Shown piece after piece: positions 1 through 43,161 of a stretch of DNA of 64,000 nucleotides. The notes under the pieces are model-generated. The model saw nothing but the letters and a program-made list of their open reading frames with translations, was not told the DNA's origin and ran no database searches. The DNA comes from Escherichia coli (GTDB taxonomy: Bacteria > Pseudomonadota > Gammaproteobacteria > Enterobacterales > Enterobacteriaceae): assembly GCF_001677475.2 (NCBI RefSeq), contig NZ_CP015229.1; one strand, written 5' to 3'. Both the position numbers and the translations under genes were made by a program. Each line of letters begins with the position of its first letter. Within the stretch, counting starts at the first letter, position 1.

Positions 1-1074
1 TGCGCTCAGGCTTACCGAAATCTTCTTCCCACGGCTGTTCAAAGCCCGGAATACGCAAGTTGGATACGGAGAAACCGACCAGACCGGCTTTCGGCTTTGC
101 GCCACGCCCGGTGGCACCTTCATCGCGGATTTCACCGCCGGAACCGGTCGCCGCGCCCGGCCACGGAGAAATCGCCGTCGGGTGGTTGTGGGTTTCGACT
201 TTCATCAGAATATGCGCCGGTTCCTGATGGAAATCGTAGCGGCCCGTTTCGTGGTCAGCAAAGTAGCGGCCCACTTCAGACCCTTCCATGACGGCGGCGT
301 TATCTTTATAAGCAGAGAGAACGTGATCCGGCGTAGTTTCGAAGGTGTTTTTGATCATCTTGAACAGCGATTTCGGCTGCTGTTCACCGTCGATAATCCA
401 GTCGGCGTTAAAAATTTTGTGGCGGCAGTGCTCAGAGTTCGCCTGAGCGAACATATACAGCTCAATGTCGTTCGGGTTACGACCAAGCTTTGTGAAAGCA
501 TCCTGCAGATAGTCGATTTCATCTTCCGCCAATGCCAGGCCAAGGCGCAGGTTAGCGTCGATTAGCGCCTGACGGCCCTGCCCCAGCAAATCTACGCTGG
601 TGACCGGAGTCGGTTGATGGTGTGCAAACAGCTGCTCTGCATCATCTAAAGCAAAAAAGACCGTTTCCATCATGCGGTCGTGCAGTTCAGCGGTAACCTG
701 CTGCCATTGTTCATTGGTCAGCGTACCGGCTTCTATATAGTAAGCCACGCCGCGCTCAAGGCGGTTAACCTGTTGCAGCCCGCAGTTATGGGCAATATCG
801 GTCGCTTTCGAAGACCAGGGAGAGATGGTGCCAGGACGCGGGGTCACCAGCAGGAGTTTGCCTTGCGGGGCGTGGCTGGCGAGTGCCGGGCCATATTTCA
901 GCAGGCGTTCAAGTTGTGCGTGCTCATCATCGTTTAACGGCGCATTGAGGTCAGCAAAATGGACATACTCGGCGTAAATATTGTGAACCGGGAGCCTGGC
1001 AGCCTGAAAACGTGCCAGCAGTTTGTTGATTCGGAATGCCGACAATGCAGGCGAACCACGCAGAATTTCCATCA
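1..1074 (-). CDS. purL: phosphoribosylformylglycinamidine synthase PurL, N-terminal 358 codons; gene continues past window start
   Basis: Minus-strand frame open from ATG at 1072-1074 to the window edge; translation starts [20 protein letters not shown], recognised as E. coli PurL; absent from ORF track because no stop lies in the window. Confidence 0.9.
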
Positions 1075-1152
1075 TAAGTCTCTCGTCTTCTAAGCTTTCG
1101 GTGTACCCAAGGGGGGGGAAACGGGCGTCATTATAAAGAATCTGATGCGCTG

Positions 1153-1168
1153 ACGAAACCGTTTGCGT
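1153..1168. promoter_or_regulatory. candidate PurR operator (pur box) upstream of purL
   Basis: Near-palindrome ACGAAACCGTTTGCGT about 80 bp upstream of the purL start, resembling the PurR consensus ACGCAAACGTTTGCGT. Confidence 0.5.
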
Positions 1169-1333
1169 GGAAATAAAATCACCATCGAGAATTAGCAACG
1201 CGTGCCGCCAATGGCTGTAATAAGTTGCCATCTGGCGCAGGTTTACGCAAAATGCCGCTCATTTATGAGTAAACCTTTCACTATTATTACGTTTTTTCAA
1301 GCTGGGACGCGCACGACACAGAGAATTAACTAA

Positions 1334-3435
<2,102 letters not shown>

Positions 3436-3447
3436 CTATGCTTTACT

Positions 3448-4083
3448 CTATTCCAGTTGCTGGAGTTCACCGCGCGGGGTTACTCGCCAACGATGCTGAC
3501 AGAAATAAAGCAGCGGGTTGTCCTGATTACTGTCGCTATAGCCACTGTACAACCGCAGTGGCGTGCCGATTTTACGCTCCAGTTGCGCGACCTTCTCATG
3601 CCCGAGGCAACGCATCGTCAATACCCAACCACCATAGCCACGCTGAATCTGACTGGCGATAAGATTAACCCGCGGCAGCCAGGGCGTATCGAAATAAACC
3701 GCTTCAACCAGCGGCTGCGGAGAGCCGGTAATCAACCAGATATCAGCATCGGAACTTAACAGGTAGGTGGTTAATCGCTCCTGAACCAGCGGAAAGGCGG
3801 TAACATTGTCACGAAACCAGCGTACGAAATCGGCCTGCAACGCCTGCAAACGCGCTTCATTGTGACCAAAAGTGCATCCCCACAGAAGCAGGCTCATCGG
3901 CCAGCGTGCCGCACGACCTTTTATCAATAACGCAATGGCTATGATCGGCAACAACGGCAGAACAAGTAACGCATTCAGCGGTTGGCGACGCAGTAAATAA
4001 CGCAAAAAACTGCCGAACATATCCTGCTGATGCAATGTTCCATCTAAGTCAAAAAACACCACACGACGCTCGTGAGTTGCCAA
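3448..4083 (-). CDS. pgpC: phosphatidylglycerophosphatase C (HAD-like, N-terminal membrane anchor)
   Basis: 211-aa ORF; HAD motif VVFFDLDGTL; matches recalled YfhB/PgpC length and position. Confidence 0.88.
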   Translation of the reverse strand: MATHERRVVFFDLDGTLHQQDMFGSFLRYLLRRQPLNALLVLPLLPIIAIALLIKGRAARWPMSLLLWGCTFGHNEARLQALQADFVRWFRDNVTAFPLVQERLTTYLLSSDADIWLITGSPQPLVEAVYFDTPWLPRVNLIASQIQRGYGGWVLTMRCLGHEKVAQLERKIGTPLRLYSGYSDSNQDNPLLYFCQHRWRVTPRGELQQLE

Positions 4084-4291
4084 ACCATACTCCTCTGGAC
4101 TGAAACATCCTGATTAATTTTCGCTACTACATAGCCTAACAGATAGATCATCACTTTTCCGGCAACAATCGACCGCATCATGGCTAACTGGAATTTTTAA
4201 TTCATGGCAATTAGCGGCAATGGAATATAAAATTCACTCGCGTGTGTCTCATATTGCCTGTTGTCGCCACTATTTCATCGCGAGGAAAGAT

Positions 4292-5140
4292 ATGAACGGC
4301 TTACTTCGTATCCGTCAGCGTTACCAGGGGCTTGCCCAAAGTGATAAAAAACTGGCGGATTATCTGCTGCTACAACCTGATACGGCGCGCCATTTAAGCT
4401 CTCAGCAACTGGCCAACGAAGCCGGAGTCAGTCAGTCCAGCGTCGTGAAGTTCGCGCAAAAACTCGGCTATAAAGGTTTCCCGGCGCTTAAGTTAGCGTT
4501 GAGTGAAGCGCTGGCAAGCCAGCCGGAATCTCCCTCCGTGCCCATTCATAACCAAATCCGCGGTGATGATCCGTTACGGCTGGTCGGCGAAAAACTGATT
4601 AAAGAAAATACTGCCGCTATGTACGCAACGCTAAACGTTAATAGTGAAGAGAAACTGCATGAATGCGTAACAATGTTGCGCTCTGCGCGGCGGATAATTC
4701 TGACCGGTATTGGCGCTTCGGGTCTGGTGGCGCAAAACTTTGCCTGGAAGCTGATGAAGATTGGCTTCAATGCTGCCGCAGTGCGCGATATGCATGCGCT
4801 ACTCGCTACAGTACAGGCGTCGTCCCCTGACGATCTGTTATTAGCCATTTCTTACACCGGTGTACGACGCGAGTTAAACCTGGCGGCAGATGAGATGCTG
4901 CGAGTGGGCGGAAAAGTGCTGGCGATTACCGGCTTTACTCCCAATGCCCTGCAACAGCGCGCTTCTCATTGCCTGTATACCATTGCCGAAGAACAAGCGA
5001 CAAACAGTGCTTCAATCTCTGCTTGTCACGCGCAGGGAATGTTAACGGATTTGCTGTTCATTGCGCTGATTCAGCAGGATCTGGAACTGGCACCAGAACG
5101 TATTCGTCATAGTGAAGCGCTGGTGAAAAAACTGGTCTGA
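4292..5140 (+). CDS. yfhH: RpiR/MurR-family transcriptional regulator (HTH + SIS domain)
   Basis: ATG at 4292 preceded by GAGGAAAGA; 282 aa matching K-12 YfhH length; HTH segment followed by SIS-like region. Confidence 0.88.
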   Translation: MNGLLRIRQRYQGLAQSDKKLADYLLLQPDTARHLSSQQLANEAGVSQSSVVKFAQKLGYKGFPALKLALSEALASQPESPSVPIHNQIRGDDPLRLVGEKLIKENTAAMYATLNVNSEEKLHECVTMLRSARRIILTGIGASGLVAQNFAWKLMKIGFNAAAVRDMHALLATVQASSPDDLLLAISYTGVRRELNLAADEMLRVGGKVLAITGFTPNALQQRASHCLYTIAEEQATNSASISACHAQGMLTDLLFIALIQQDLELAPERIRHSEALVKKLV

Positions 5141-5159
5141 GTAAAGAATGCGCGTATAA

Positions 5160-5456
<297 letters not shown>

Positions 5457-5649
5457 TATTCTGCTCTGGAAGTAGAGTATTAATTATTTTACAGGAAAGC
5501 CTTAACGCCATTATATTTATTTAATTGATGACATTAGCATAATTATTCACAAAATGAATTTATATAATATCTGCCCAGACATTTATTTATAATTATTAAA
5601 GGCGCGCCTGGCTGGTTAACCTGACGCGCCTTAAGTACGTTTCCTTATG

Positions 5650-5730
5650 TTATAAGAACAGAAGGATCAGCTGTAAAACAGCAATGATGATTTTGATGAC
5701 CCGTTTAATAAGGTATCGGCAATCAGTCAT
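5650..5730 (-). CDS. shoB: type I toxin ShoB, 26-aa hydrophobic peptide
   Basis: Reverse complement of 5650-5730 translates exactly to MTDCRYLIKRVIKIIIAVLQLILLFL plus stop; too short for the ORF track. Confidence 0.9.
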   Translation of the reverse strand: MTDCRYLIKRVIKIIIAVLQLILLFL

Positions 5731-6051
5731 TCGTTTTTCCTTAAACAAGGAATGCAGCCGTTCAGATTAGCCCTTACATCTCCCCAAAACTGAACGTGCG
5801 AGTTATTGGAATCGAGTGCTGCACTCCACACCAGAGCTTTGACGACACCACTCGTTTCAATGGGGGAATTCAGTGGCATGGTGTAAAGCACAGCAAAATT
5901 GCCAATAACGAAACCGATTTTAATGTACTTATCAAAAAGCGGTCACGTTAATCTTTTCATCAATGTCGATTTCTTCGTAAAGGCTCGCGTTTTTTATGTC
6001 AGAGATTGCAAGTTGCTTGTACAGGTCAACTAAATTGATCCATAATCATTT

Positions 6052-6128
6052 CCGTTGGAATCGTGTGCTGCACAAAATTAAAGTTGTAAAGTGAAAACCC
6101 CCGTTCCTTACCAGTTCGGGGGTTTTAC
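6052..6128 (+). ncRNA. ohsC: candidate antitoxin sRNA OhsC, divergent from shoB
   Basis: Sigma70-like -35 TTGTAC / 18 bp / -10 CATAAT (6041-6046); rho-independent hairpin CCCCCG...CGGGGG + T-tract at 6098-6126; 19-nt segment 6055-6073 matches plus-strand 5806-5824 in the shoB 5'-UTR region at 18/19 positions, the expected pairing site. Confidence 0.45.
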
Positions 6129-6151
6129 TTTATAAAGAGAACGGTATTTTT

Positions 6152-6532
6152 TTAACTTTCAATAATTACCGTGGCACAAGCATAGTGGCGTTCATCTGCC
6201 AGCGTTACATGCATATTTACAACGCCGAGCTTTTCCGCCAGTTTTAATGCCTCACCCCATAGCCGTAGCCGTGGTTTGCCGAGCTCATCATTGAATACTT
6301 CAAATTGATTAAACGCCAGACCATTGCGGATCCCGGTGCCAAACGCTTTTGCCGCCGCTTCTTTCACAGCAAAACGCTTCGCCAGAAAACGCACCGGCTG
6401 GTGGTGCGTTTTCCAGATTGCCCATTCGTTATCGCTTAATACGCGGCGTGCCAGGCGTTCACCGGATCGGGCGATCACCGCTTCTATGCGAGCGATCTCC
6501 ACAATATCCGTACCTAAACCTAATATTGCCAT
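6152..6532 (-). CDS. acpS: holo-[acyl-carrier-protein] synthase
   Basis: 126-aa ORF starting [13 protein letters not shown]; last gene of the rnc-era-recO-pdxJ-acpS cluster. Confidence 0.95.
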
Positions 6533-7263
6533 TAGCCACGCGATTCCAGCATCAGACGCTTCATTTCTGCCACCGCATCTTTCAGTCCGGTCATCACTGC
6601 ACGACCAATAATGGCATGACCGATATTCAGTTCATGCATCTCAGGGATGGCAGCAATAGCTTTCACGTTGTGATAGGTCAGACCGTGACCAGCGTTAACT
6701 TTCAGACCGAGACTAGCGGCAAAGGTCGCGGCTTTGGCGATACGCGCCAGCTCTTGCGCCTGTTCGGCGTCAGTTTTGGCATCAGCATAGCAACCGGTGT
6801 GGATCTCGATAAACGGTGCGCCAACCTCTGCCGCAGCTTTGATCTGCTCTTCATCGGCGTCGATAAACAGAGAAACCTGGATCCCGGCCTCCGCCAGACG
6901 TTTACAGGCATCGCGCATTTTGTCACGCTGCCCTGCGACGTCCAGGCCGCCTTCGGTTGTTACTTCCTGACGCTTTTCCGGTACCAGACAGCAAAAATGT
7001 GGCTTCGTCTCAACGGCGATCGCCAGCATCTCTTCGGTCACCGCCATCTCCAGATTCATGCGGGTATCCAGCGTCTGCCGCAGGATACGCACGTCGCGGT
7101 CGGTAATGTGGCGGCGATCTTCACGTAAATGCACGGTAATGCCGTCCGCTCCCGCCTGCTCAGCAATAAACGCCGCCTGCACCGGATCCGGGTAAGCAGT
7201 ACCGCGTGCGTTACGCAGCGTTGCAATATGGTCAATGTTGACGCCTAACAGTAATTCAGCCAT
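6532..7263 (-). CDS. pdxJ: pyridoxine 5'-phosphate synthase
   Basis: 243 aa from [21 protein letters not shown]; 1-nt overlap with acpS. Confidence 0.95.
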
Positions 7264-7274
7264 GACAATCCTCA

Positions 7275-8003
7275 TCATTCATAATGTGTTTTCACCGTTC
7301 GCTTAGGCATAAACTGCCGGAACAGTTCCCTGCTCTTTAATGGTTTACCGCCAAGATACGGCTTAAGCGCCATGCGGGTAAAGCGTTTCGCGGCGCGTAG
7401 TGTGTCTGCGTCAGGAAATTCCCGCGCGTTTAACGCTTTTAACTGCCTTCCGGTGAACGTTTTATTGTCGATAACGACGCTTGCGATAAACCCTTTTTCT
7501 TCGCGATAACGATACGTCATGGTGTCATCTACCGGCTCGCCGCTACCCGCGCAATGGGTAAAATTGACGCCATAGCCCAGATGCCCGAGCAGTGCCAGTT
7601 CAAAGCGGCGCAGCGCGGGTTCTGGCGTACCAGTGGCACCTGCAAGTGACTGAATGCAGTGCAAGTAATCGAAAAAGAGTTCAGAGAAGCGCGTCTCGTA
7701 TTCCAGTACGCGGGAGAGAAGTTCGTTGATGTACAGACCGCTGTAAAGCGTGATACCGCTTAATGGCAGCGCCAGCGAGACAGCTTCAGCACTGCGCAGC
7801 GTTTTGACTTCGCCACGCCCGCCAAAACGTAGCAAGAGAGGGGTGAAAGGCTGTAATGCACCTTTCAGAGTAGAGCGTTTAGAGCGTGCGCCTTTGGCAA
7901 CCAGACGCACGCGACCCGATTCCTCCGTGAAGACGTCCAGCATCAGGCTGGTTTCGCTCCACGGGCGACTATGCAATACGAATGCGCGCTGCCAGCCTTC
8001 CAT
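7275..8003 (-). CDS. recO: DNA repair protein RecO
   Basis: 242 aa from [20 protein letters not shown]. Confidence 0.95.
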
Positions 8004-8134
8004 CATACTCGTCGCCTTTCAAGTTGCAGGTGCCTTGGCTGCACCCGTTCACCCTGGTCACTTACTTTAGTAAGCTCCCAGGGATTCACGGTCTTGCCGC
8101 CTTCCTGCACCTCGAAAGTCATAGAGTATGCTAA

Positions 8135-9747
<1,613 letters not shown>

Positions 9748-9988
9748 TCAGCACACGAAACAGACCTGATATACATGGCTCTGCTAACTGCTTCGCTGCA
9801 GTTTCAGTTTAGCGGTATATGGGGACCAACGCTGTTTCGTGTGCCGTGGCAACCTGGAGGTGCCAACCTTAAACTTCGGGGGAATATTCTATACACAACG
9901 ACGGGGGATGTCGTTAGCCACGGGAGATTTATCTCATAAATAATTCACGTTGTCGCCATAACGGCGACAACGTGAACGAAGATGGCTA

Positions 9989-10963
9989 TTAATGGATGCC
10001 GCCAATGCGACTTAAGCGCACACCTGTCGGCCATTCGCCTTCTTGCTTATCGAAGCTCATCCAGATAGCCGTTGCCCGACCGACCAGATTCGCTTCCGGC
10101 ACAAAGCCCCAGTAACGGCTGTCCGCGCTGTTGTCGCGGTTGTCGCCCATCATGAAGTATTGCCCCGGCGGTACAATCCAGGTTGCCAGTTGTTGCCCTG
10201 GCTGCTGGTAATACATCCCCACCTGATCCTGCGCAATCGGCACTGTCAGAATACGATGCGTCACATCACCCAGTGTCTCTTTACGCTCGGAAAGACGAAT
10301 TCCATTTTCTTTGGTTTCGTTTTTCGGCACTTCAAAGAATCCGCTGGTCGCTTCCCCACCATTACGGCGTGAGAAGGTCTGAACGAAATCGCTCGGTTCC
10401 ACGTTTGAGTAGGTGACCGGCAGCGCGTTTTCACACGCCTGGCCGGAACTGCATCCCGGTTGAATCGTCAGCTCTTTTGAGACCGGATCATAAGTGACTT
10501 TATCGCCCGGCAAACCCACCGCGCGCTTGATGTAATCAAGCTTTGGATCTTCCGGATATTTAAAGACCACGATATCGCCGCGTTTCGGATGACCGGTTTC
10601 GATCAGCGTTTTCTGGTAGATAGGATCTTTAATGCCATAAGCAAACTTCTCTACCAGAATAAAATCACCGATTAACAGAGTCGGCATCATCGAACCTGAC
10701 GGGATCTGGAACGGTTCATAAATAAACGAACGCACAATCAATACGATAGCCAGCACCGGAAAAACAGAAGCACCGGTTTCCAGCCAGCCAGGCTTCGGCG
10801 CAACTTTCTTCAGCGTTGCTTTATCCAGTGAGTCACCGGCAGCCGCCTGCGCCGCTGCCTGACGTTCCCGCCGTTTAGGTGCGAAAAAGAATTTATCCAC
10901 GCACCATAAAATGCCCGTCACCAGTGTGGCAATCACCAGAATCAGGGCAAACATATTCGCCAT
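9989..10963 (-). CDS. lepB: signal peptidase I
   Basis: 324 aa; catalytic Ser box SGSMMPTL; two N-terminal TM segments. Confidence 0.96.
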   Translation of the reverse strand: MANMFALILVIATLVTGILWCVDKFFFAPKRRERQAAAQAAAGDSLDKATLKKVAPKPGWLETGASVFPVLAIVLIVRSFIYEPFQIPSGSMMPTLLIGDFILVEKFAYGIKDPIYQKTLIETGHPKRGDIVVFKYPEDPKLDYIKRAVGLPGDKVTYDPVSKELTIQPGCSSGQACENALPVTYSNVEPSDFVQTFSRRNGGEATSGFFEVPKNETKENGIRLSERKETLGDVTHRILTVPIAQDQVGMYYQQPGQQLATWIVPPGQYFMMGDNRDNSADSRYWGFVPEANLVGRATAIWMSFDKQEGEWPTGVRLSRIGGIH

Positions 10964-10978
10964 GCCAACTCCTAAGGG

Positions 10979-12778
<1,800 letters not shown>

Positions 12779-12975
12779 AAAGTATGATTATTGTGCCTTA
12801 ATGCCCGGTTAACCAGGCTTTTAGAAGTCGCTGTTCTGAGCTTAACGTCTGTATTAATAGAAACGCCGCATTCTACACTACAACATTGAGGCGAGGAAAT
12901 GTTCATACCGTATGGATTGTGGTATCTGGAAACGTCCTCGCATTTGTTATGCAAAATGCAACAAAGCCAGTGAAA

Positions 12976-13455
12976 TCACTGGCTCGCGTCTTCCGAAGAT
13001 GTTTCAAATCGCACAAGGCCAGGCGGCAATGCCACGCTTAAGATGATCGGTTGCCATTCAGACCGGGCAGCAAACTTTCGAGAGCAGCCACGTGCAATCA
13101 GGAATCCACCAACGCCACCGAGAATCGCACCGCATAATGCTGCAATATCTGAAGCAAAGAGTAGCTGAAATAGTGAAGCGATGAGGAATAGTCCCACCAA
13201 CGGCGACATATAAACCAGTAATGCGGAGCTAAGCAGGCTGCCTTCGGCGATTCCTAATTCTACTTTTTGCCCCGGCACTAACGGCTCATCACAGGGTACG
13301 ACAATGGTATGCGTGGTTTGCGGGCCAAGTTTATTCAACACGCGGCTACCGCAACCGGCGCGTGAAGCGCAGCTGCTGCATGAGGCTTTAACATCACAAC
13401 TGACCAGCGCCTGCCCGTTTTGCCAGGAGACGACGGTAGCCCACTCTTTGATCAT
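12976..13455 (-). CDS. rseC: sigma-E regulatory protein RseC
   Basis: 159 aa; position and sequence in the rpoE-rseABC operon. Confidence 0.93.
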   Translation of the reverse strand: MIKEWATVVSWQNGQALVSCDVKASCSSCASRAGCGSRVLNKLGPQTTHTIVVPCDEPLVPGQKVELGIAEGSLLSSALLVYMSPLVGLFLIASLFQLLFASDIAALCGAILGGVGGFLIARGCSRKFAARSEWQPIILSVALPPGLVRFETSSEDASQ

Positions 13456-14408
13456 TGCGCTGCCCCGAACTTAATATTCTCGGCAATGCGTTTCGCCGTT
13501 TGCGGCGGCAGTTCACCGACAATGGTGATTTCGGCGTTATCACGTACGCTTGTACTGACGGTTCTGCGTCCGGTGCGCAACATCTGATCGGTGCTCGATG
13601 GCGTAGCGCGGTTAACGTTTACCGAGAAGCTGAATAATCCGTCGGAATAGAGACGTGATTCGATAGGCATGTTGTCCATCGTCGGTAGCGGACGTCGACT
13701 ACTGGAAACTTCGCTAAAACCCTGTGGCAACCAGGTTGGCGTCCAGCTGAATTTAGCTTTTTCACCTACAGGAACAGAAAGCAACGGCGGCAAATTTGCC
13801 TTCGCCAGCGTCTGCATACTGCTGCTGATATCCTGATTGACGTTAAAAGCAATCACGCGAAATTGTTCCAGCGTTTCACCATCGCGATCAAGGAGATCAA
13901 CCCTCATCGGTAATTTCGATTCAGTGTCCATCCACACGATGTAGCTGTAGCGTGTACCATCTCGGGCAACCACGCGAATGACTTCGCAAAGACGATCAGC
14001 AATACGCGTGCGCCCGACGGAGATAAAGTCGTAGTAAGGAGAAAGGCGTTTGAAATCGGTATAGATGAGCGATGGCAGAGAATCAACAATGTAATCGCCA
14101 TTAAGCGTGAACGGTTCAAGTCCCGGTTCAAAATAGCTGATTTCATTGCCGCGCTGTACCACTTCCCGGCGCGGGCCATCCATTTGCAACAATTGTGCAA
14201 GAGGACGGTTATCGAGGCGTGCATGTCGATAACGCAGAGACTCAACACCCTGTTTATTGATGCTGATGAATGACAGCTCGTAATTCAGTGACTGACTGGC
14301 CAGGTTCATCTGCTGTAATAACGCCCCGGACGCGGGAGTGGCCGAGGCGTTAGCAGAGAATAACAGGCTACCTGTCACTAATGACATGGCAAACCAAAGT
14401 TGCTTCAT
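13452..14408 (-). CDS. rseB: sigma-E regulatory protein RseB (periplasmic)
   Basis: 318 aa with signal peptide; overlaps rseC and rseA stop/start. Confidence 0.95.
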   Translation of the reverse strand: MKQLWFAMSLVTGSLLFSANASATPASGALLQQMNLASQSLNYELSFISINKQGVESLRYRHARLDNRPLAQLLQMDGPRREVVQRGNEISYFEPGLEPFTLNGDYIVDSLPSLIYTDFKRLSPYYDFISVGRTRIADRLCEVIRVVARDGTRYSYIVWMDTESKLPMRVDLLDRDGETLEQFRVIAFNVNQDISSSMQTLAKANLPPLLSVPVGEKAKFSWTPTWLPQGFSEVSSSRRPLPTMDNMPIESRLYSDGLFSFSVNVNRATPSSTDQMLRTGRRTVSTSVRDNAEITIVGELPPQTAKRIAENIKFGAAQ

Positions 14409-15058
14409 TACTGCGATTGCGTTCCTAAAGTTTGAATTCCTGGCACCTGTACAGCGGCTTGCTGGGTTTGCGCCTGCTCAAACTGAAGCTGTTCAGAGTG
14501 GAGTCGGCGTTGCAGTTCGTAATCCTGCAACATTGCATTAATGCGACGACGCTGCTCCTGTACCTGCTGCTGTTGACCATTGTTTGCGGTCGCTTCAGAA
14601 GGTACTCCCAGGCTTACCGGGCTGGCTTTACCCATCATCGGCAGTGTATTAAATACCGGCGTTTCGGGCTGCTGGGACGTTTCAGATTGTCCATTATAGT
14701 GCTGGACGCCAACGATAACTGCAAGCGATACGCATGCGGCTACGCCCATTTGGGTAAGCTGTGCCGCCCACGGACGTACTTTCTGCCAGAATGGCATTTT
14801 CTGCCATTGATGCGGCGCAGGCTGGGCTTCCGGGATCAATGTCGCCGGTTGACGTACTGGCTCTTCTTCAATGGCGGCCATCACGCGTGAAGAGATATCG
14901 AAATGGAGCACCTCGGGAGTATCACCCCGCATTGAATCACGGATTAAGTGATAGCTTTCCCAGGTTTTCTGCATTTCTGGGTTATGAGCCAGTTCGTTAA
15001 GCAGCTCACTATCCAGCGTTTCGCCATCCATTAAAGCGGAAAGTTGTTCTTTCTGCAT
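14408..15058 (-). CDS. rseA: anti-sigma-E factor RseA
   Basis: 216 aa from MQKEQLSALMDGETLD (ATG 15056-15058); the ORF track's longer form starts upstream in frame. Confidence 0.94.
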   Translation of the reverse strand: MQKEQLSALMDGETLDSELLNELAHNPEMQKTWESYHLIRDSMRGDTPEVLHFDISSRVMAAIEEEPVRQPATLIPEAQPAPHQWQKMPFWQKVRPWAAQLTQMGVAACVSLAVIVGVQHYNGQSETSQQPETPVFNTLPMMGKASPVSLGVPSEATANNGQQQQVQEQRRRINAMLQDYELQRRLHSEQLQFEQAQTQQAAVQVPGIQTLGTQSQ

Positions 15059-15090
15059 GCCTAATACCCTTATCCAGTATCCCGCTATCG

Positions 15091-15666
15091 TCAACGCCTG
15101 ATAAGCGGTTGAACTTTGTTATCAATAGCTTCCCTCGCTCGGAAGATACGTGAACGCACCGTACCTACCGGACAATCCATGATAGCGGCTATCTCTTCAT
15201 AGCTCAGGCCATCCAGCTCCCGCAAGGTTATTGCCATACGTAAATCTTCCGGGAGGGACTCAATAGTTCGGAAAACTATCTGTCTCAGTTCTTCTGACAA
15301 CATTAAGTTCTCAGGGTTCGAAATTTCTTTCAACGCGCCGCCACTTTCGAAGTTTTCAGCTTCAATGGCATCCACATCACTGGAAGGTGGACGACGCCCC
15401 TGAGCAACCAGGTAATTTTTCGCTGTATTTACAGCAATCCGATACAGCCATGTATAAAAAGCGCTATCTCCCCGGAACGAATCCAGCGCACGATAGGCTT
15501 TAATAAAAGCTTCTTGTACCACATCGGGAACATCACCCGACGGCACATAGCGGGAAACCAGACTCGCCACTTTATGCTGATAGCGCACTACCAGTAAGTT
15601 AAAGGCTTTCTGATCTCCCTTCTGGACCCGTTCAACCAGGACCTGGTCCGTTAACTGCTCGCTCAT
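15091..15666 (-). CDS. rpoE: RNA polymerase sigma-E (sigma-24)
   Basis: 191 aa from MSEQLTDQVLVERVQKGD; ECF sigma regions 2 and 4. Confidence 0.96.
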   Translation of the reverse strand: MSEQLTDQVLVERVQKGDQKAFNLLVVRYQHKVASLVSRYVPSGDVPDVVQEAFIKAYRALDSFRGDSAFYTWLYRIAVNTAKNYLVAQGRRPPSSDVDAIEAENFESGGALKEISNPENLMLSEELRQIVFRTIESLPEDLRMAITLRELDGLSYEEIAAIMDCPVGTVRSRIFRAREAIDNKVQPLIRR

Positions 15667-15748
15667 CCGAGGTAAAGTCTCCCCAAACCAAATTTCCACG
15701 CGCTATCGAAACGCCACTCCATTAGCTGCAATTTGAGCAAGCAAAGGG

Positions 15749-15776
15749 TTAGAGTGTCTCGTTTTTGTAAAGTTCC
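15749..15776 (-). promoter_or_regulatory. sigma-E-dependent promoter (rpoE P2-like)
   Basis: On minus strand GGAACTT - 16 nt - TCTAA, matching the sigma-E consensus, about 80 bp upstream of the rpoE start. Confidence 0.65.
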
Positions 15777-16049
15777 GTAACGCATCTGTTTTTGTTTGTC
15801 ATGCTGTAGACGGATCATTATCTATCATTATAAGTCTACAGAATCTGAACATCGCATTATCTGTGTAGAAATGCCCATTTAACTGCCTGAAGAGTAACCC
15901 AACGGCCTTTTTATTTCACCACCTAATCCTCCACCAGCCAGTAACTTCTCTTTTTCTCGCCGCCCTGAGTCAGCGTGTTTAGCCACTGTAACAAATATTA
16001 AAATAGCAGGTGTTTAATCGCACAACATGATGCTATGCTGACCAAACCG

Positions 16050-18418
<2,369 letters not shown>

Positions 18419-18549
18419 GAAAATAAAACCTTGCAGGAAAAACGGCGATAGCACCGGGTGAGAACAATACCCGAGAAGCGATATCCATACAAACAGATGA
18501 AGATTGCAGCCGTAACGTCTATAATCAGCGCCCCACACAGAGGTAGAAC

Positions 18550-19884
18550 ATGACTGTAACGACTTTTTCCGAACTTGAACTCGACGAAAGCCTGCTGGAA
18601 GCCCTCCAGGATAAAGGTTTCACTCGCCCGACCGCCATTCAGGCTGCCGCCATTCCGCCTGCGCTCGATGGCCGTGATGTACTCGGTTCTGCGCCGACAG
18701 GCACCGGTAAAACGGCGGCGTATCTGCTGCCAGCGTTGCAGCACCTGCTCGATTTCCCACGTAAGAAATCCGGTCCGCCGCGTATTTTGATCCTCACCCC
18801 AACTCGCGAGCTGGCGATGCAGGTGGCCGATCATGCCCGCGAACTGGCGAAACATACGCATCTGGATATTGCCACCATCACCGGCGGCGTAGCCTATATG
18901 AACCACGCGGAAGTGTTCAGCGAAAATCAGGACATCGTGGTCGCCACGACCGGACGTCTGCTGCAATACATAAAAGAAGAGAACTTCGATTGCCGCGCGG
19001 TTGAAACGCTGATCCTCGACGAAGCAGACCGTATGCTGGATATGGGCTTCGCTCAGGATATCGAACATATTGCTGGCGAAACGCGCTGGCGTAAACAGAC
19101 CCTGCTCTTTTCCGCAACGCTGGAAGGCGATGCGATTCAGGACTTTGCCGAGCGTCTGCTGGAAGATCCGGTGGAGGTTTCTGCCAATCCGTCCACCCGT
19201 GAGCGCAAAAAAATTCATCAGTGGTATTACCGCGCCGATGACCTGGAACATAAAACCGCATTGCTGGTGCATCTGTTAAAACAGCCGGAAGCGACCCGCT
19301 CAATTGTGTTTGTGCGTAAGCGTGAGCGTGTGCATGAGCTGGCAAACTGGCTGCGCGAAGCGGGTATCAACAACTGCTATCTCGAAGGTGAGATGGTACA
19401 GGGCAAGCGTAACGAAGCGATCAAGCGTTTGACCGAAGGTCGCGTAAACGTACTGGTTGCAACCGATGTTGCCGCGCGCGGTATCGACATTCCTGACGTC
19501 AGCCACGTCTTTAACTTCGATATGCCGCGCAGTGGCGATACTTATTTGCACCGTATCGGACGTACCGCGCGCGCCGGTCGTAAAGGCACCGCAATTTCGC
19601 TGGTAGAAGCCCATGACCATCTGCTGCTGGGCAAAGTTGGTCGCTATATTGAAGAGCCAATTAAAGCTCGTGTAATTGATGAGTTACGCCCGAAAACGCG
19701 TGCGCCAAGCGAAAAGCAGACCGGCAAGCCATCGAAGAAAGTACTGGCTAAACGTGCCGAGAAGAAAAAAGCTAAAGAGAAAGAGAAGCCGCGGGTGAAA
19801 AAACGCCATCGCGACACCAAAAATATTGGTAAGCGCCGTAAACCAAGCGGAACGGGCGTGCCACCGCAAACGACAGAAGAGTAA
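18550..19884 (+). CDS. srmB: ATP-dependent DEAD-box RNA helicase SrmB
   Basis: 444 aa; Q-motif, Walker [13 protein letters not shown] box (LILDEADRM), [11 protein letters not shown] motifs. Confidence 0.96.
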
Positions 19885-19916
19885 TTTCAATGCCGGGTTT
19901 AAGCCCGGCATTGTTT

Positions 19917-20798
19917 TTATCCCGGCAAAAAACACTCTTCAACACACTGAATAAAAGTGTGCATCGCCGGGCTAACCGCTTTTCCAGCATGGTGTGCGCA
20001 CATTGCTGTAATCGTCTGCGACTGTTCGCCAAAAGGCAATTCGATTAACTCGCCGCTCGCCAATTCTTTTGCTACCGCAAAGCGCGGCAGGTAGCTGACC
20101 CCGATATTCGCCGCGACACAACGCTTGATGCTTTCGATACTTATAAGCTCAATGGTGTTTTCCACCGTGATCCGCCGCTGTCGCAGCGTGCTCTCAAATA
20201 TCTGCCGGAAGACACATTGCGGTTCATTGATAATAAAACTACAGGCGTTATGTATTCCCGGCTCAGTAAAATCGACATCTTTAATTTGCGGTGAAGCCAC
20301 CAGCACCAGTGATTGTTCACCCAACTCTCGTCGGTTCAGAGCATCATCATTCCCTACGCGATAAAAGACGCCAACATCGGCCTCATCATTCAGTAGCGCA
20401 TCACGGATCACGTAACAGTTCAGAGACTGCAACGATAAACGCACTTTTGGTGCGCGTTGCCGAAAACGCTGCAACACCTGCGGCATTCGGTAAGAAAGCA
20501 ACGTTTCGCCTGAAACAACGCGTAGTTCCCCGTCCGGATCCGACTCTTTTTTGGCAGCCTCACGAAGGGTATCCATCACTCTGGTGAGTTCATAAATGTG
20601 CGGCAGCAGCTTTTTTCCTTCGCGGGTAAGGCACATTCGTCGACCAATTTTCTCAAATAACTGGACTGAGAACTCCTGCTCAAGCTGCTGAATATGAAAA
20701 GTCACCGTCGATTGTGTGCAGCACAATTTTTGCGAAGCTCGCAAGAAGGAACCCTCTTCCATCACGGTTTTAAGCGTAATAAAACGGCGCAGATCCAT
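19917..20798 (-). CDS. yfiE: LysR-type transcriptional regulator
   Basis: 293 aa from MDLRRFITLKTVMEEGSF; LTTR HTH; divergent from eamB. Confidence 0.9.
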   Translation of the reverse strand: MDLRRFITLKTVMEEGSFLRASQKLCCTQSTVTFHIQQLEQEFSVQLFEKIGRRMCLTREGKKLLPHIYELTRVMDTLREAAKKESDPDGELRVVSGETLLSYRMPQVLQRFRQRAPKVRLSLQSLNCYVIRDALLNDEADVGVFYRVGNDDALNRRELGEQSLVLVASPQIKDVDFTEPGIHNACSFIINEPQCVFRQIFESTLRQRRITVENTIELISIESIKRCVAANIGVSYLPRFAVAKELASGELIELPFGEQSQTITAMCAHHAGKAVSPAMHTFIQCVEECFLPG

Positions 20799-31714: not shown

Positions 31715-31834
31715 ATGCCTGGCAGTTCCCTACTCTCGCATGGGGAGACCCCACACTACCATCGGCGCTACGGCGTTTCACTTCTGAGTTCGGCATGGGG
31801 TCAGGTGGGACCACCGCGCTACGGCCGCCAGGCA
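31715..31834 (-). rRNA. rrfG: 5S ribosomal RNA
   Basis: 120-nt exact match to E. coli 5S rRNA (UGCCUGGCGGCCGUAGCGCGG...CUGCCAGGCAU) on the minus strand. Confidence 0.97.
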
Positions 31835-31931
31835 AATTCTGTTTTATCAACACGTCATGTTCTGACCTGTCGATTTAATCTGTATCAGGCTGAAAATCTT
31901 CTCTCATCCGCCAAAACAGCTTCGGCGTTGT

Positions 31932-34834
<2,903 letters not shown>

Positions 34835-35017
34835 TCACAACCCGAAGATGTTTCACTTCTGATTGCGAAAATTTGAGAGACTCACGAACAACTTTCGTTG
34901 TTCAGTGTTTCAATTTTCAGCTTGATCCAGATTTTTAAAGAGCAAATATCTCAAACGTCACCCGAAGATGAGTTTTGAGATATTAAGGCAGGTGACTTTC
35001 ACTCACAAACCAGCAAG

Positions 35018-35093
35018 TGGCGTCCCCTAGGGGATTCGAACCCCTGTTACCGCCGTGAAAGGGCGGTGTCCTGGGCCTCTAGACGAAGGGGAC
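35018..35093 (-). tRNA. gltW: tRNA-Glu (UUC) in the 16S-23S spacer
   Basis: 76-nt match to GUCCCCUUCGUCUAGAGGCCCAGGACACCGCCCUUUCACGGCGGUAACAGGGGUUCGAAUCCCCUAGGGGACGCCA. Confidence 0.96.
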
Positions 35094-35178
35094 GTATCAG
35101 TCTGCTTCGCAAGACGCCTTGCTTTTCACTTTCTATCAGACAATCTGTGTGAGCACTGCAAAGTACGCTTCTTTAAGG

Positions 35179-36720
<1,542 letters not shown>

Positions 36721-37162: not shown

Positions 37163-39736
37163 TTACTGGACGGCGACAATCCGGTCTTCATTAACTTCCA
37201 GGCGAATCACTTTACCCGGAACCAATTCACCAGACAGTATTTGCTGTGCCAGCGGGTTTTCGATCTGCTGCTGAATTGCACGTTTCAGAGGACGTGCACC
37301 ATAGACCGGATCGTAACCGTTCTCGCTCAGCAGTTTCAGCGCCTCGTCAGAAATGTGGATTTCATAACCACGTTCTTCCAGACGTTTATACAGACGTTTC
37401 AACTGAATCTGCGCAATCGACGCAATGTGCTGTTCACCCAGCGGATGGAAGACCACCACTTCATCGATACGGTTAATGAATTCCGGACGGAAGTTATGGC
37501 TAACCACACCGAGCACCAGCTCTTTCATGTGAGCATAATCCAGTTCACCGAAGCGTTCCTGAATCAGATCGGAACCGAGGTTAGAGGTCATAATGACGAC
37601 CGTATTACGGAAGTCGACCGTTCTCCCCTGCCCGTCAGTCAGACGCCCATCATCCAGTACCTGCAACAGAATGTTGAAGACATCCGGATGCGCTTTTTCC
37701 ACTTCATCCAGCAGGATGACGGAATACGGACGACGACGCACAGCTTCGGTCAGGTAGCCACCTTCTTCATAACCGACATATCCCGGAGGCGCACCAACCA
37801 GACGAGACACCGAGTGTTTCTCCATAAACTCGGACATATCGATACGGACCATCGCCTCGTCGCTATCAAACATAAAGTTCGCCAGCGCCTTACAAAGCTC
37901 TGTTTTCCCCACACCAGTTGGGCCGAGGAACAGGAATGAACCAATCGGGCGATTTGGATCCGCCAGCCCCGCACGGCTACGACGAATAGCGTTAGATACC
38001 GCATCAACCGCTTCGTTCTGACCAATTACGCGATGGTGCAGTTCTTGCTCCATACGCAGCAGTTTTTCGCGCTCGCTTTCCATCATGCGAGAAACCGGAA
38101 TCCCCGTCCAACGCGCCAGCACTTCAGCAATTTCGGCGTCGGTCACTTTATTACGCAACAGACGCATAGTTTTGCCTTCGAGCTGCGTTGCGGCTTCCAG
38201 TTGCTTTTCCAGTTCCGGGATTTTGCCGTATTGCAGTTCAGACATCCGCGCCAGGTCCCCCACACGGCGAGCCTGTTCAATAGCGATTTTCGCCTGTTCC
38301 AGTTCCGCTTTAATGGTCTGCGTACCAGAAAGCGATGCCTTCTCTGCTTTCCACTCTTCTTCTAACTCGGAGTACTGACGTTCTTTGTCGCTCAGCTCTT
38401 CGTTGAGCATATCCAGGCGTTTTTTACTGGCTTCATCAGACTCTTTCATTAACGCCTGTTGTTCCAGTTTGAGCTGGATGATACGACGATCGAGTCGGTC
38501 GAGTTCTTCTGGTTTTGAGTCAATCTGCATACGAATGCTGGATGCTGCTTCATCGATCAGGTCGATGGCTTTATCCGGCAGCTGACGGTCAGCAATGTAG
38601 CGATGAGACAACGTCGCCGCTGCAACAATTGCCGGGTCAGTAATTTGCACATGGTGGTGCAATTCGTAACGTTCTTTCAGGCCACGCAGAATCGCAATGG
38701 TATCTTCAACAGAAGGCTCGGCAACAAACACTTTCTGGAAACGACGTTCCAGCGCAGCATCTTTTTCGATGTACTGGCGATATTCGTCAAGCGTCGTGGC
38801 ACCTACGCAGTGCAATTCACCACGCGCCAGCGCCGGTTTCAGCATGTTTCCGGCGTCCATTGCGCCATCGGCTTTACCCGCGCCGACCATGGTATGTAAT
38901 TCGTCGATAAACAGGATGACGTTGCCTTCCTGTTTGGCAAGATCGTTAAGCACGCCTTTTAAACGTTCTTCAAACTCACCGCGATATTTCGCCCCAGCCA
39001 CCAGCGCGCCCATATCCAGCGCCAGTACCCGGCGGCCTTTCAACCCTTCCGGCACTTCGCCGTTGATAATACGCTGCGCCAGACCTTCAACGATGGCAGT
39101 TTTACCGACGCCTGGTTCACCAATCAGTACCGGGTTATTTTTAGTACGACGTTGTAGCACCTGAATGGTACGGCGAATTTCTTCATCACGACCAATCACC
39201 GGATCGAGTTTGCCCTGTTCGGCTCGTTCGGTAAGGTCGATGGTATATTTTTTCAAAGCCTGACGTTGGTCTTCAGCACCTTGATCGTTCACGCTTTCAC
39301 CTCCACGCATTTGTTCAATCGCTTGAGTAATGTTGGCGGTGGTCGCCCCTGCTGCTTTCAGGATGTCGGCCAGCGTGCCGCGAGACTCAAGTGCCGCCAG
39401 AACGAACAGTTCTGACGAGATAAAGTTATCACCACGTTTTTGCGCCAGCTTGTCGCAAAGATTAAGAACGCGCACCAGATCCTGTGATGGCTGGACATCA
39501 CCACCAGTACCTTCAACCTGCGGTAAACGATTTAATGCCTGATTGATATCTGTGCGCAACTGGCCAGCATTAATGCCAGCGGATGTTAATAAAGGACTAA
39601 CCGAACCCCCTTCCTGATTCAGCAGGGCGCTCATTAAATGAAGTGGTTCGATGAATTGGTTGTCGTGCCCGAGTGCAAGTGATTGGGCATCGGCAAGAGC
39701 AAGCTGGAATTTATTAGTAAGACGATCCAGACGCAT
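37163..39736 (-). CDS. clpB: disaggregase chaperone ClpB
   Basis: 857 aa from [11 protein letters not shown]; two AAA+ modules (Walker A GEPGVGKT and GPTGVGKT), coiled-coil M-domain. Confidence 0.97.
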
Positions 39737-39774
39737 AACTCCTCCCATAACGGATCAAAGTTGCTACTGGAGAT

Positions 39775-39803
39775 TAAATGAGGTCATCCCTCAATTATTC
39801 AAG
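39775..39803 (-). promoter_or_regulatory. sigma-32 heat-shock promoter of clpB
   Basis: Minus strand CTTGAA - 14 nt - CCTCATTTA, matching the sigma-32 -35 / -10 consensus (CTTGAA / CCCCATnT). Confidence 0.65.
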
Positions 39804-39865
39804 GTTATTGACCAGATTAATGTGAAAAGAAAATCACGCGTACCGGATCGTCTTGATTCTTTAGG

Positions 39866-43106: not shown

Positions 43107-43161
43107 TTGACAGCGTGAAAACAGTACGGGTACTGTACTGAAGTCACTTAAGGAAACAAAC

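What the first reader, a model, noticed from the sequence alone, without database searches (positions are those of the whole stretch)
5650..6130. shoB/ohsC type I toxin-antitoxin locus with a visible 19-nt pairing repeat
The 26-aa hydrophobic toxin ShoB is encoded exactly on the minus strand (5650-5730) and was missed by the ORF track because of its size. A divergent small transcription unit (promoter -10 CATAAT at 6041-6046, terminator hairpin 6098-6126) fits the antitoxin sRNA OhsC. A 19-nt plus-strand segment (6055-6073, TTGGAATCGTGTGCTGCAC) is repeated at 18/19 identity at 5806-5824 within the shoB 5' UTR region, the expected sRNA-mRNA pairing site. This is known biology, but it is a compact regulatory module that standard ORF calling misses.
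Basis: partly seen in the sequence, partly recalled or inferred. Interest (0 to 1): 0.3.

Follow-up and report, generated by a model that had tools for sequence, protein, structure and literature searches.

The report
Known shoB/ohsC toxin–antitoxin locus, variant allele
This is the already-described E. coli shoB/ohsC module, in which a small RNA silences a 26-residue membrane toxin; the one imperfect base in the visible 19-base repeat marks a second, co-varying "pairing allele" carried by about a third of E. coli genomes.

Summary

- **Toxin gene:** Window 5650-5730 (-) encodes ShoB, identical in amino acids to K-12 b4687.
- **Antitoxin RNA:** 6054-6131 (+) matches Rfam ohsC_RNA at 95.4 bits (threshold 50). 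It aligns base for base with the curated K-12 ohsC ncRNA.
- **Context:** Gene order (yfhL / shoB / ohsC / acpS) and the promoter hexamers match the published locus.
- **Repeat:** The 19-nt repeat is real, at 18/19 identity. About 0.02 such matches are expected by chance in the window.

This is known biology.

What I add is that the repeat exists in two forms. K-12, about 68% of complete E. coli genomes and other Escherichia species carry TTGAGGGTGC[A/G]TGCTGCAC at both sites. This window, O157, ST131 and about 31% of genomes carry TTGGAATCG[A/T]GTGCTGCAC at both sites, always with a central U·U mismatch.

Seven positions changed in concert in both partners, and two more changed in the 5' end of the mRNA. 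None of 88 loci was mixed. Predicted cognate duplexes are -34 to -41 kcal/mol, against about -22 for cross-class pairs.

Folding supports a two-layer control in which 5' processing frees the OhsC target. A 2024 survey noted variable pairing regions, and I found no report of this co-variation in the papers I could read.

The parts
5650..5730 (-). shoB coding sequence: 26 aa plus stop, a hydrophobic toxin
   Evidence: Translation is identical to K-12 b4687. RefSeq annotates the same ORF as 'type I toxin-antitoxin system toxin ShoB'.
5737..5742 (-). shoB Shine-Dalgarno AAGGAA (mRNA nt 169-174)
   Evidence: Read from the sequence. Listed as the RBS, 100% conserved, in PMC11264685 Table 2. Paired with the anti-SD in every predicted fold.
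5747..5758 (-). Anti-SD UUCCUU and 'sequence 3' (mRNA nt 153-164, GCUGCAUUCCUU)
   Evidence: Forms the local hairpin UUCCUU/AAGGAA. Nt 153-162 can instead pair with nt 84-93 at -19.3 kcal/mol.
5805..5824 (-). OhsC target in the shoB 5' UTR (mRNA nt 87-106), the left copy of the repeat
   Evidence: Repeat D1. Duplex of -34.2 kcal/mol. Co-variation with OhsC.
5878..5909 (-). 5' arm of the shoB primary transcript (nt 2-33), which pairs with nt 77-109 and buries the OhsC target
   Evidence: Folds with z = -5.9. Pairs 9:102 and 11:101 co-vary with allele class. Opening the target costs 16-19 kcal/mol in the +1 form and about 7 in the +42 form.
5592..5910 (-). Predicted shoB primary transcript of about 319 nt. 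The published processed 5' end at +42 corresponds to about 5869.
   Evidence: Bounded by the promoter and the terminator hairpin. The length matches the published ~320 nt and ~280 nt forms (PMC5668327, PMC5066626). The ends were not mapped here.
5594..5637 (-). shoB terminator hairpin, lying between the convergent yfhL and shoB genes
   Evidence: Inverted repeat I2. Predicted stem. The stem differs from K-12 by a compensatory U-A to C-G change.
5917..5946 (-). shoB sigma-70 promoter: -35 GTGACC at 5946-5941 and -10 TAAAAT at 5922-5917
   Evidence: Promoter scan. Same hexamers as PMC11264685 Table 2. The hexamers are conserved while the spacer diverges from K-12.
6017..6046 (+). ohsC promoter: -35 TTGTAC at 6017-6022 and -10 CATAAT at 6041-6046
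   Evidence: Promoter scan. PMC11264685 Table 2 gives CATAAT in 100% of strains and TTGTAC in 33.1%.
6054..6131 (+). ohsC antitoxin sRNA, about 78 nt
   Evidence: Rfam RF02495 at 95.4 bits, full model 1-77. Aligns with the K-12 ncRNA b4608.
6054..6073 (+). OhsC pairing domain (nt 1-20), the right copy of the repeat
   Evidence: The 5' end is largely unpaired in the predicted OhsC fold.
6088..6131 (+). OhsC terminator hairpin. It is near-palindromic and lies 20 nt from the acpS stop codon.
   Evidence: Inverted repeat I7, Rfam structure and a weak reverse-strand hit, and the fold.

Best explanation
This is the chromosomal shoB/ohsC type I toxin-antitoxin locus, in its second ('class II') pairing allele.

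shoB is transcribed leftward into an mRNA of about 319 nt with a 180-nt leader. In the primary transcript the first 33 nt pair with nt 77-109, which buries the OhsC target, and the Shine-Dalgarno AAGGAA is held by an upstream UUCCUU. The mRNA is therefore inert.

Removal of about 41 nt from the 5' end (published for K-12) frees nt 84-106. This segment can then pair with the anti-SD region (nt 153-162) and open the ribosome-binding site, or it can act as a standby site.

OhsC is a 78-nt RNA transcribed rightward from 6054. Its first 20 nt bind nt 87-106 of the mRNA. This blocks the activating step and creates an RNase III substrate, so ShoB is not made.

Shown here: the genes, the signals, the complementarity, its co-variation across genomes, and the predicted structures and energies. 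Taken from K-12 literature: toxicity, repression, processing and RNase III cleavage. Inferred: the structural switch, and that the class II pair works as the K-12 pair does.
For: - Identity of the parts.
- Repeat beyond chance.
- Pairing: the 20-pair intermolecular helix is 98.7% paired across 15 distinct haplotypes. Five pairs show changes on both sides, and all four one-sided changes keep a wobble or Watson-Crick pair. Slid controls are 26-52% paired.
- Energies: cognate duplexes are -34.2 (II) and -41.4 (I) kcal/mol, against -21.5 and -23.0 for cross-class pairs.
- 5' hairpin: fold z-score -5.9. Co-varying pairs 9:102 and 11:101. Opening the target costs 16-19 kcal/mol in the +1 form and about 7 in the +42 form.
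- Switch: forcing nt 84-93 to pair with nt 153-162 opens the SD. It costs +10 to +13 kcal/mol in the +1 form but only +1 to +3 in the +42 form.
- Literature: 19-nt complementarity of the OhsC 5' end (PMC3919570). The ~320-nt form is inactive and the ~280-nt form active; OhsC abolishes ShoB toxicity; ShoB depolarises cells (PMC5668327, PMC5066626, PMC5397157). RNase III cleavage occurs in the shoB/OhsC duplex region in MG1655 (PMC6212723). A dinQ-like four-element fold has been proposed for shoB (PMC5066626).
Against: - No transcript, toxicity or repression data exist for this window's allele. All experiments cited used K-12, or used EDL933 OhsC only as a scaffold or control.
- The class II duplex has a fixed central U·U mismatch (9+9 Watson-Crick pairs plus a terminal G·U). 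In the analogous zorO/OrzO system a 9(1)8 variant repressed less well (PMC3919570).
- The SD-open structure is not the predicted minimum-energy fold of the +42 RNA.
- The helix between nt 84-93 and 153-162 is invariant in my sample, so comparison can neither support nor refute it.
- All compensatory changes trace to essentially one evolutionary event, the split between class I and class II.
Confidence: 0.9

Rival explanations
1. The locus is the same, but OhsC acts by competing with a ribosome standby site, as IstR-1 does on tisB and OrzO does on zorO. It would not act by preventing an anti-anti-SD helix.
For: The target lies 63-87 nt upstream of the SD and far from the start codon. It becomes partly single-stranded only in the +42 form (unpaired probability 0.32-0.43; opening cost about 7 kcal/mol). 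The SD hairpin persists in the minimum-energy fold of the +42 RNA. The standby model has been proposed explicitly for shoB (PMC5397157, PMC4147584).
Against: A 10-bp helix between nt 84-93 and the anti-SD region exists (-19.3 kcal/mol) and is nearly iso-energetic with the minimum-energy fold in the +42 form. That fits the dinQ-type switch (PMC5066626). Neither model has been tested for shoB, and they are not mutually exclusive.
Confidence: 0.35
2. In the class II allele the antitoxin pairing is degenerating. The U·U mismatch would mark a weakened or leaky OhsC control rather than a fully functional pair.
For: All 35 class II loci examined carry the mismatch. The duplex is 7 kcal/mol weaker than in class I. 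A 9(1)8 OrzO variant had attenuated repression (PMC3919570).
Against: 18 Watson-Crick pairs with one unpaired position exceeds the 17-pair minimum found for discontinuous OrzO-zorO pairing (PMC3919570). The net predicted binding on the +42 RNA is still -23.7 kcal/mol. The promoter hexamers, SD and ShoB ORF are intact. The allele is carried by about 1,670-1,690 of 5,426 complete genomes, which is hard to reconcile with an unrestrained toxin.
Confidence: 0.15
3. The 19-nt repeat is a chance match, or a leftover of a duplication or a DNA-level protein-binding site, with no role as an RNA pairing site.
For: On the DNA it is a direct repeat. One copy overlaps a transcription start and both lie in a regulatory region with predicted CpxR boxes (PMC11264685).
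Against: Chance expectation is 0.02 matches. Both copies changed in concert at 7 positions between allele classes. The one-sided differences are all of the kind that keeps an RNA pair (G·U) but breaks DNA identity. RNase III cleaves within the duplex region in vivo in K-12 (PMC6212723). OhsC overexpression abolishes ShoB toxicity (PMC5668327).
Confidence: 0.02

Closest known systems
shoB/ohsC of E. coli K-12 MG1655 (b4687/b4608; formerly ryfB/ryfC)
   Same: Identical ShoB protein. Same position between yfhL and acpS, same divergent arrangement, same promoter -10 hexamers and shoB -35, same SD, same leader length and same OhsC terminator. OhsC scores above the Rfam threshold.
   Different: The pairing segment differs at 7 of 19 positions in both partners (GAGGGTGCA becomes GGAATCGAG in the target and GGAATCGTG in OhsC), and pairing is 18/19 rather than 19/19. 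The promoter region between the two genes is only 80% identical, against about 97% in the flanking genes. The ohsC -35 is TTGTAC rather than TTGTAA.
zorO/orzO and zorP/orzP of E. coli O157:H7
   Same: A divergently encoded sRNA whose first ~18 nt pair with a long toxin 5' UTR far from the RBS. 5' processing activates the mRNA. A few variable nucleotides (V1) in the pairing domain set specificity (PMC3919570, PMC5397157).
   Different: The toxin is unrelated (29 aa). In zor/orz the specificity variants coexist as tandem copies in one genome. Here the two variants are alternative alleles of a single-copy locus in different strains.
dinQ/agrB of E. coli
   Same: Four leader elements. The 5' end pairs with the antitoxin-recognition region in the primary transcript. 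After 5' trimming, that region pairs with the anti-SD element. The antitoxin restores the closed SD hairpin (PMC5066626). The same topology and energetics are predicted here.
   Different: The toxin and sequences are different, and dinQ is LexA-regulated. The switch is shown experimentally for dinQ but only predicted for shoB.
tisB/istR-1 of E. coli
   Same: Divergent sRNA, about 21 nt of 5'-end pairing in the leader, an inactive +1 mRNA and an active +42 mRNA, and RNase III cleavage of the duplex (PMC7708055, PMC4147584).
   Different: tisB is SOS-controlled and uses a demonstrated standby site with a pseudoknot. No LexA box is known for shoB. CpxR boxes are proposed instead (PMC11264685).

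Membership tests
shoB/ohsC type I toxin-antitoxin locus | 26-aa hydrophobic ShoB ORF with its own SD | tested here: met
   MTDCRYLIKRVIKIIIAVLQLILLFL is identical to K-12, with AAGGAA 6 nt upstream of the ATG. No Pfam or NCBIfam HMM exists for it, so membership rests on sequence identity.
shoB/ohsC type I toxin-antitoxin locus | OhsC sRNA matching the curated covariance model | tested here: met
   RF02495 at 95.4 bits against a gathering score of 50, full-length match on the + strand.
shoB/ohsC type I toxin-antitoxin locus | Divergent gene pair in the yfhL-acpS intergenic region, at the positions and strands of the published annotation | tested here: met
   NC_000913.3 annotation and alignment A1. 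The first base of ohsC coincides.
shoB/ohsC type I toxin-antitoxin locus | About 19 nt of complementarity between the OhsC 5' end and the shoB 5' UTR | tested here: met
   18/19 plus a terminal G·U, -34.2 kcal/mol. Maintained by compensatory change across alleles.
shoB/ohsC type I toxin-antitoxin locus | Published promoter hexamers of both genes | tested here: met
   GTGACC/TAAAAT for shoB and TTGTAC/CATAAT for ohsC, matching Table 2 of PMC11264685.
shoB/ohsC type I toxin-antitoxin locus | Transcripts of ~320/280 nt (shoB) and ~78 nt (OhsC) actually made | not testable with these tools
   Only the predicted lengths (319 nt and 78 nt) from promoter and terminator positions. Experiments exist for K-12 only.
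shoB/ohsC type I toxin-antitoxin locus | ShoB overproduction is toxic and OhsC represses it | not testable with these tools
   Published for K-12 (Fozo 2008, as summarised in PMC5668327). I found no report of this being tested for the class II pairing allele.
Divergent, 5'-UTR-targeting type I systems (tisB/istR-1, zorO/orzO, dinQ/agrB, shoB/ohsC) | Antitoxin pairs far upstream of the RBS, not over it | tested here: met
   Target at nt 87-106, SD at nt 169-174, AUG at nt 181.
Divergent, 5'-UTR-targeting type I systems (tisB/istR-1, zorO/orzO, dinQ/agrB, shoB/ohsC) | Primary transcript is structurally inert and 5' trimming exposes the antitoxin or activation site | tested here: inconclusive
   Predicted only. 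The target is buried in the +1 form (opening cost 16-19 kcal/mol) and freed in the +42 form (about 7). The SD-opening helix becomes affordable only in the +42 form. There are no probing data.

The most novel reading that the evidence does not exclude
E. coli may carry two old, non-recombining specificity alleles of a single-copy type I toxin-antitoxin pair.

In class II the OhsC seed, its target in the shoB leader and the leader's own 5' arm have all switched sequence together. Class II comprises this window, O157, ST131 and about 31% of complete genomes.

The core block (5806-6073) is 78-81% identical to class I. That is more diverged than class I alleles of different Escherichia species are from each other (87-96%). 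The flanks are mosaic.

If the two classes are functionally orthogonal, meaning each OhsC silences only its own shoB, this would be a natural specificity switch. It would also answer the question left open in the 2024 survey, namely whether individual strains keep enough shoB-OhsC pairing. The fixed U·U mismatch could then be a tuning feature.
Probability: 0.5. Interest if true: 0.4.

Novelty: already known. Interest (0 to 1): 0.25.

Why it matters
As submitted, the finding is a correct recognition of textbook-level E. coli biology. Its practical value is as a reminder that ohsC is still absent from PGAP-annotated RefSeq genomes, although an Rfam model exists.

The extra result is modest but usable. 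The pairing domain of a single-copy chromosomal type I antitoxin is dimorphic in the species, and both partners, plus the cis-acting 5' arm of the mRNA, co-vary.

- It gives natural compensatory-mutation evidence for the OhsC-shoB duplex and for the inhibitory 5' hairpin, neither of which has been dissected experimentally.
- It shows that experiments with K-12 constructs do not automatically transfer to O157:H7 or ST131.

Tried and rejected
- **Chance repeat:** rejected by shuffles and by concerted change.
- **Protein-family assignment of ShoB:** Pfam and NCBIfam return nothing for the 26-aa peptide, so I used identity to K-12 instead.
- **Upstream ORF in the shoB leader** (5891-5727, 54 codons, ending in AUGA on the shoB start), considered as a mok-like coupling frame. 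I rejected it as a probable gene. There is no SD. Its AUG lies within the 41 nt removed from the active mRNA. The AUG is lost in the L005-type haplotype. The amino-acid changes are radical (CTL, LDS or RIL at the target), and a few contigs carry frameshifts.
- **Terminator scan:** it found nothing because of its loop-length limit. The hairpins are evident.
- **My first enforced-helix calculation** used the wrong register (penalty 20-36 kcal/mol). It is superseded.
- **An apparent 91.6% identity at the yfhH 3' end** is an artefact of terminal gaps, because L001 starts 24 nt inside the interval.
- **Primary literature:** Fozo 2008 and Fozo 2012 are not held, so I cite their content only through papers that summarise them. 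The searches for 'ohsC + compensatory' and for RyfB/RyfC returned nothing relevant.
- **Joint genotyping of both sites in all 5,426 genomes** was not possible. The counts agree to within 19 genomes (1,673 against 1,692).

Full report
**1. Checking the observation**

The sequence is as described. Window 5650-5730 on the minus strand translates to MTDCRYLIKRVIKIIIAVLQLILLFL followed by a stop. This is the same 26 residues as K-12 shoB. The DNA differs by one synonymous base.

A mechanical ORF list at a 20-aa minimum shows it only as a 32-codon TTG-started frame. The ATG at 5730 is preceded by AAGGAA at 5737-5742.

The two 19-mers at 5806-5824 and 6055-6073 are a direct repeat with 18 of 19 identical. 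Allowing three mismatches, they are the only two matches in the 64-kb window. Shuffles give a mean of 0.02 matches.

The CATAAT at 6041-6046 sits 17-18 nt downstream of TGTACA/TTGTAC. Perfect 10-nt inverted arms lie at 6094-6103 and 6117-6126. The consensus terminator scan reported nothing because its loop limit is 8 nt and this loop is 13 nt.

**2. What it is**

- Rfam's ohsC_RNA model (RF02495) matches 6054-6131 on the plus strand over its full length, at 95.4 bits against a gathering score of 50.
- The curated K-12 MG1655 record places shoB (minus) and the ohsC ncRNA (plus, 2700520-2700598) between yfhL and acpS.
- The window has the same neighbours: yfhL at 5172-5456 (+) and acpS at 6152-6532 (-).
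- In the alignment, the first base of annotated ohsC coincides with window 6054.
- 5,425 of 5,426 complete E. coli genomes have the region, always chromosomal and nearly always single-copy.

PGAP-annotated RefSeq records list shoB but not ohsC. Only the curated K-12 record lists ohsC.

**3. Anatomy of the two transcripts**

*shoB.* The promoter scan finds GTGACC (5946-5941) and TAAAAT (5922-5917) on the minus strand. These are the hexamers given for shoB in Table 2 of PMC11264685. They put the start near 5910.

A GC-rich hairpin at 5594-5637 lies downstream of the stop codon. The predicted RNA is therefore about 319 nt, matching the published ~320-nt full-length form. The published second 5' end, 41 nt further in, gives the ~280-nt form (PMC5066626, PMC5668327, PMC5397157).

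In mRNA numbering:
- the OhsC target is nt 87-106;
- the SD is nt 169-174;
- the AUG is nt 181.

*OhsC.* It starts 7 nt after its -10 element. It has a mostly open 5' end and a long terminator stem.

**4. The pairing, and the meaning of 18/19**

A direct repeat on one DNA strand, read by divergent promoters, yields complementary RNAs. OhsC nt 1-20 pair with mRNA nt 106-87 as 10 pairs, one U·U, then 9 pairs. The first pair is G·U. The duplex is -34.2 kcal/mol.

K-12 has a different 19-mer, TTGAGGGTGCATGCTGCAC, and has it at both sites.

I collected 82 full-length loci:
- the window;
- K-12;
- the closest RefSeq hit;
- four GTDB species representatives;
- 75 metagenome contigs.

They fall into two classes with no mixed haplotype.

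| | Class I | Class II |
|---|---|---|
| Loci among the 82 | 51 | 31 |
| Target | TTGAGGGTGCATGCTGCAC (rare variants TTGAGGGTACATGCTGCAC and TTGAGGATGCGTGCTGCAC) | TTGGAATCGAGTGCTGCAC |
| OhsC 5' end | TTGAGGGTGC[A/G]TGCTGCAC | TTGGAATCGTGTGCTGCAC |
| Pairing | 19/19, or 1-2 mismatches | always 18/19, central U·U |

Six more complete genomes agree. O157 strain 180-PT54, an ST131 isolate and two other strains are class II. Two strains from the ~90% identity band are class I.

Across all complete genomes:
- the class II target 40-mer is in 1,673;
- the class II OhsC 40-mer is in 1,692;
- the class I target is in 3,693 of 5,426.

This is consistent with the bimodal identity distribution. It also matches the 33.1% TTGTAC variant of the ohsC -35 reported in PMC11264685.

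E. albertii, E. whittamii and two unnamed Escherichia species carry class I targets. Class II is therefore the derived or imported form.

**5. Co-variation statistics**

I used an alignment of the 15 distinct haplotypes, each written as mRNA nt 1-120 joined to OhsC nt 1-25. On it, the 20-pair intermolecular helix behaves as follows:
- 98.7% of cells are paired, against 26-52% when the partner is slid by 1-3 columns.
- Five pairs change on both sides.
- Four pairs change on one side only, and each of those changes keeps a standard pair (G-C to G·U, U·G to U-A and the like).
- The only unpaired cells are the class II U·U.

The caveat is that the five double changes are adjacent and separate the same two clades. 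They represent essentially one event, and the sites are only 249 bp apart. The shuffle statistics therefore overstate independence.

Cross-class duplexes are predicted at -21.5 and -23.0 kcal/mol, against -34.2 and -41.4 for cognate pairs.

**6. A third co-varying element**

The primary shoB transcript folds with z = -5.9. Nt 2-33 pair with nt 77-109, so the OhsC target forms the 3' arm of a long 5' hairpin.

The 5' arm also differs by class: UUGAAGA in K-12, UUGGCGA in the commonest other class I form, and UUGGCAA in class II. Pair 9:102 occurs as A-U, G·U or G-C. Pair 11:101 switches from G-C to A-U together with the class.

The mRNA's own 5' end and OhsC thus compete for the same sequence, and both track its changes. 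Opening the target costs 16-19 kcal/mol in the +1 RNA and about 7 kcal/mol in the +42 RNA. This agrees with the published finding that only the processed form is active (PMC5668327).

**7. How repression probably works**

The SD is paired with UUCCUU (nt 159-164) in all predicted folds.

Nt 84-93 (GGAGUGCAGC) are complementary to nt 153-162 (GCUGCAUUCC), forming 10 pairs at -19.3 kcal/mol. Enforcing this helix opens the SD. It costs 10-13 kcal/mol in the +1 RNA but only 1.0 (class I) to 3.3 (class II) kcal/mol in the +42 RNA.

OhsC covers nt 87-106 and would exclude this helix. This is the dinQ/agrB logic that Kristiansen et al. suggested for shoB (PMC5066626). A standby-site mechanism, as in tisB and zorO, is the published alternative (PMC5397157, PMC4147584), and I cannot separate the two.

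The invariant half of the repeat (GUGCUGCAC) is the part that overlaps the segment with three alternative partners. The variable half faces an internal loop or weak pairs of the hairpin. That would explain why only the variable half was free to change.

RNase III cleavage within the shoB/OhsC duplex region has been seen in vivo in MG1655 (PMC6212723).

**8. Divergence pattern**

Identity between the window and K-12 varies sharply by segment:

| Segment | Identity |
|---|---|
| shoB CDS and the leader segment between the start codon and the target (5731-5805) | about 99% |
| Leader segment upstream of the target (5825-5910) | 95.3% |
| acpS and pdxJ | 97-98% |
| The two pairing segments | 63-65% |
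| The promoter region between the genes | 80% |

Despite that divergence, all four promoter hexamers are kept.

The class II core (5806-6073) is 78-81% identical to every class I haplotype. Class I haplotypes from different Escherichia species are 87-96% alike in the same region. The shoB terminator and the 3' part of ohsC are shuffled between classes.

So the core behaves as a deeply diverged, unrecombined block. With 20% divergence over 250 bp, the lack of recombinants is expected even without selection. It is not by itself evidence of incompatibility.

**9. Comparison with what is known, and novelty**

The locus, its genes, the 19-nt pairing, the processing and the toxicity are all published. 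The class II OhsC sequence has been cloned from EDL933 as a scaffold (PMC3919570).

[quoted passage not shown] It added that adequacy of pairing 'cannot yet be said' (PMC11264685).

My analysis shows the variation is two co-adapted classes with pairing preserved. This is an incremental addition, not a new kind of system.

By the rule established for zorO-OrzO, one unpaired position requires at least 17 pairs (PMC3919570). The class II duplex of 18 pairs should therefore suffice. However, a 9(1)8 OrzO variant was attenuated, so a weaker class II control cannot be excluded.

**10. Verdict**

The finding is already known and of low interest as submitted. The allele dimorphism and three-way co-variation are worth a short note and a simple cross-rescue experiment.

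Noticed in passing
window 5727-5891 (-): A 54-codon frame in the shoB leader (GTG at 5891, AUG at mRNA nt 32) ends in UGA overlapping the shoB start as AUGA, and it contains the OhsC target. It has no SD. Its AUG lies in the 41 nt removed from the active mRNA and is lost in one haplotype. The amino-acid changes are radical. It is probably not a gene.
   Followed up: partly
window 5911-6053: The region between the two divergent promoters is only 80% identical to K-12, while the flanking genes are about 97%. Yet all four promoter hexamers are intact. The ohsC -35 is the TTGTAC variant, which overlaps the proposed CpxR box CB2. That box matches the K-12 sequence in only 52% of strains (PMC11264685). 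Transcriptional control may therefore differ between allele classes.
   Followed up: partly
window 5594-5637: The hairpin between the convergent yfhL and shoB genes differs from K-12 at several stem positions, including a compensatory U-A to C-G change. This terminator allele is shared with some class I haplotypes, while some class II haplotypes carry the K-12 type. The flanks of the core block are therefore mosaic.
   Followed up: partly
window 6088-6135: The OhsC terminator is nearly palindromic, with a weak Rfam hit on the reverse strand at 25 bits. It lies 20 nt beyond the acpS stop codon on the opposite strand, so it probably also terminates the pdxJ-acpS transcript.
   Followed up: no
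window 1-20000: The best identity to any of 5,426 complete RefSeq E. coli genomes is 98.5%, and every genome falls in the 95-99% band. The window is therefore not from a closely sampled E. coli lineage. It may be Shigella or an under-sampled clade.
   Followed up: no
RefSeq loci L002, L094-L099 compared with L001: PGAP-annotated E. coli genomes carry a shoB CDS but no ohsC ncRNA feature, although Rfam RF02495 detects it easily. Only the curated K-12 record lists ohsC.
   Followed up: partly
window 9663-9877, 12660-13491, 31717-36720, 39717-39855, 43161-43286, 61864-62226: Other Rfam matches in the window: rncO, AsrC (antisense of rseC), an rRNA operon with a tRNA and StyR-44, RyfD, the Phe leader and tmRNA. 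All are ordinary for this chromosomal region.
   Followed up: no
loci L017, L038, L077 (metagenome contigs): A few contigs carry single-base indels in the shoB leader, and in L017 the indel lies inside the target. These are mostly low-coverage assemblies, so the indels may be errors rather than real disrupted alleles.
   Followed up: no
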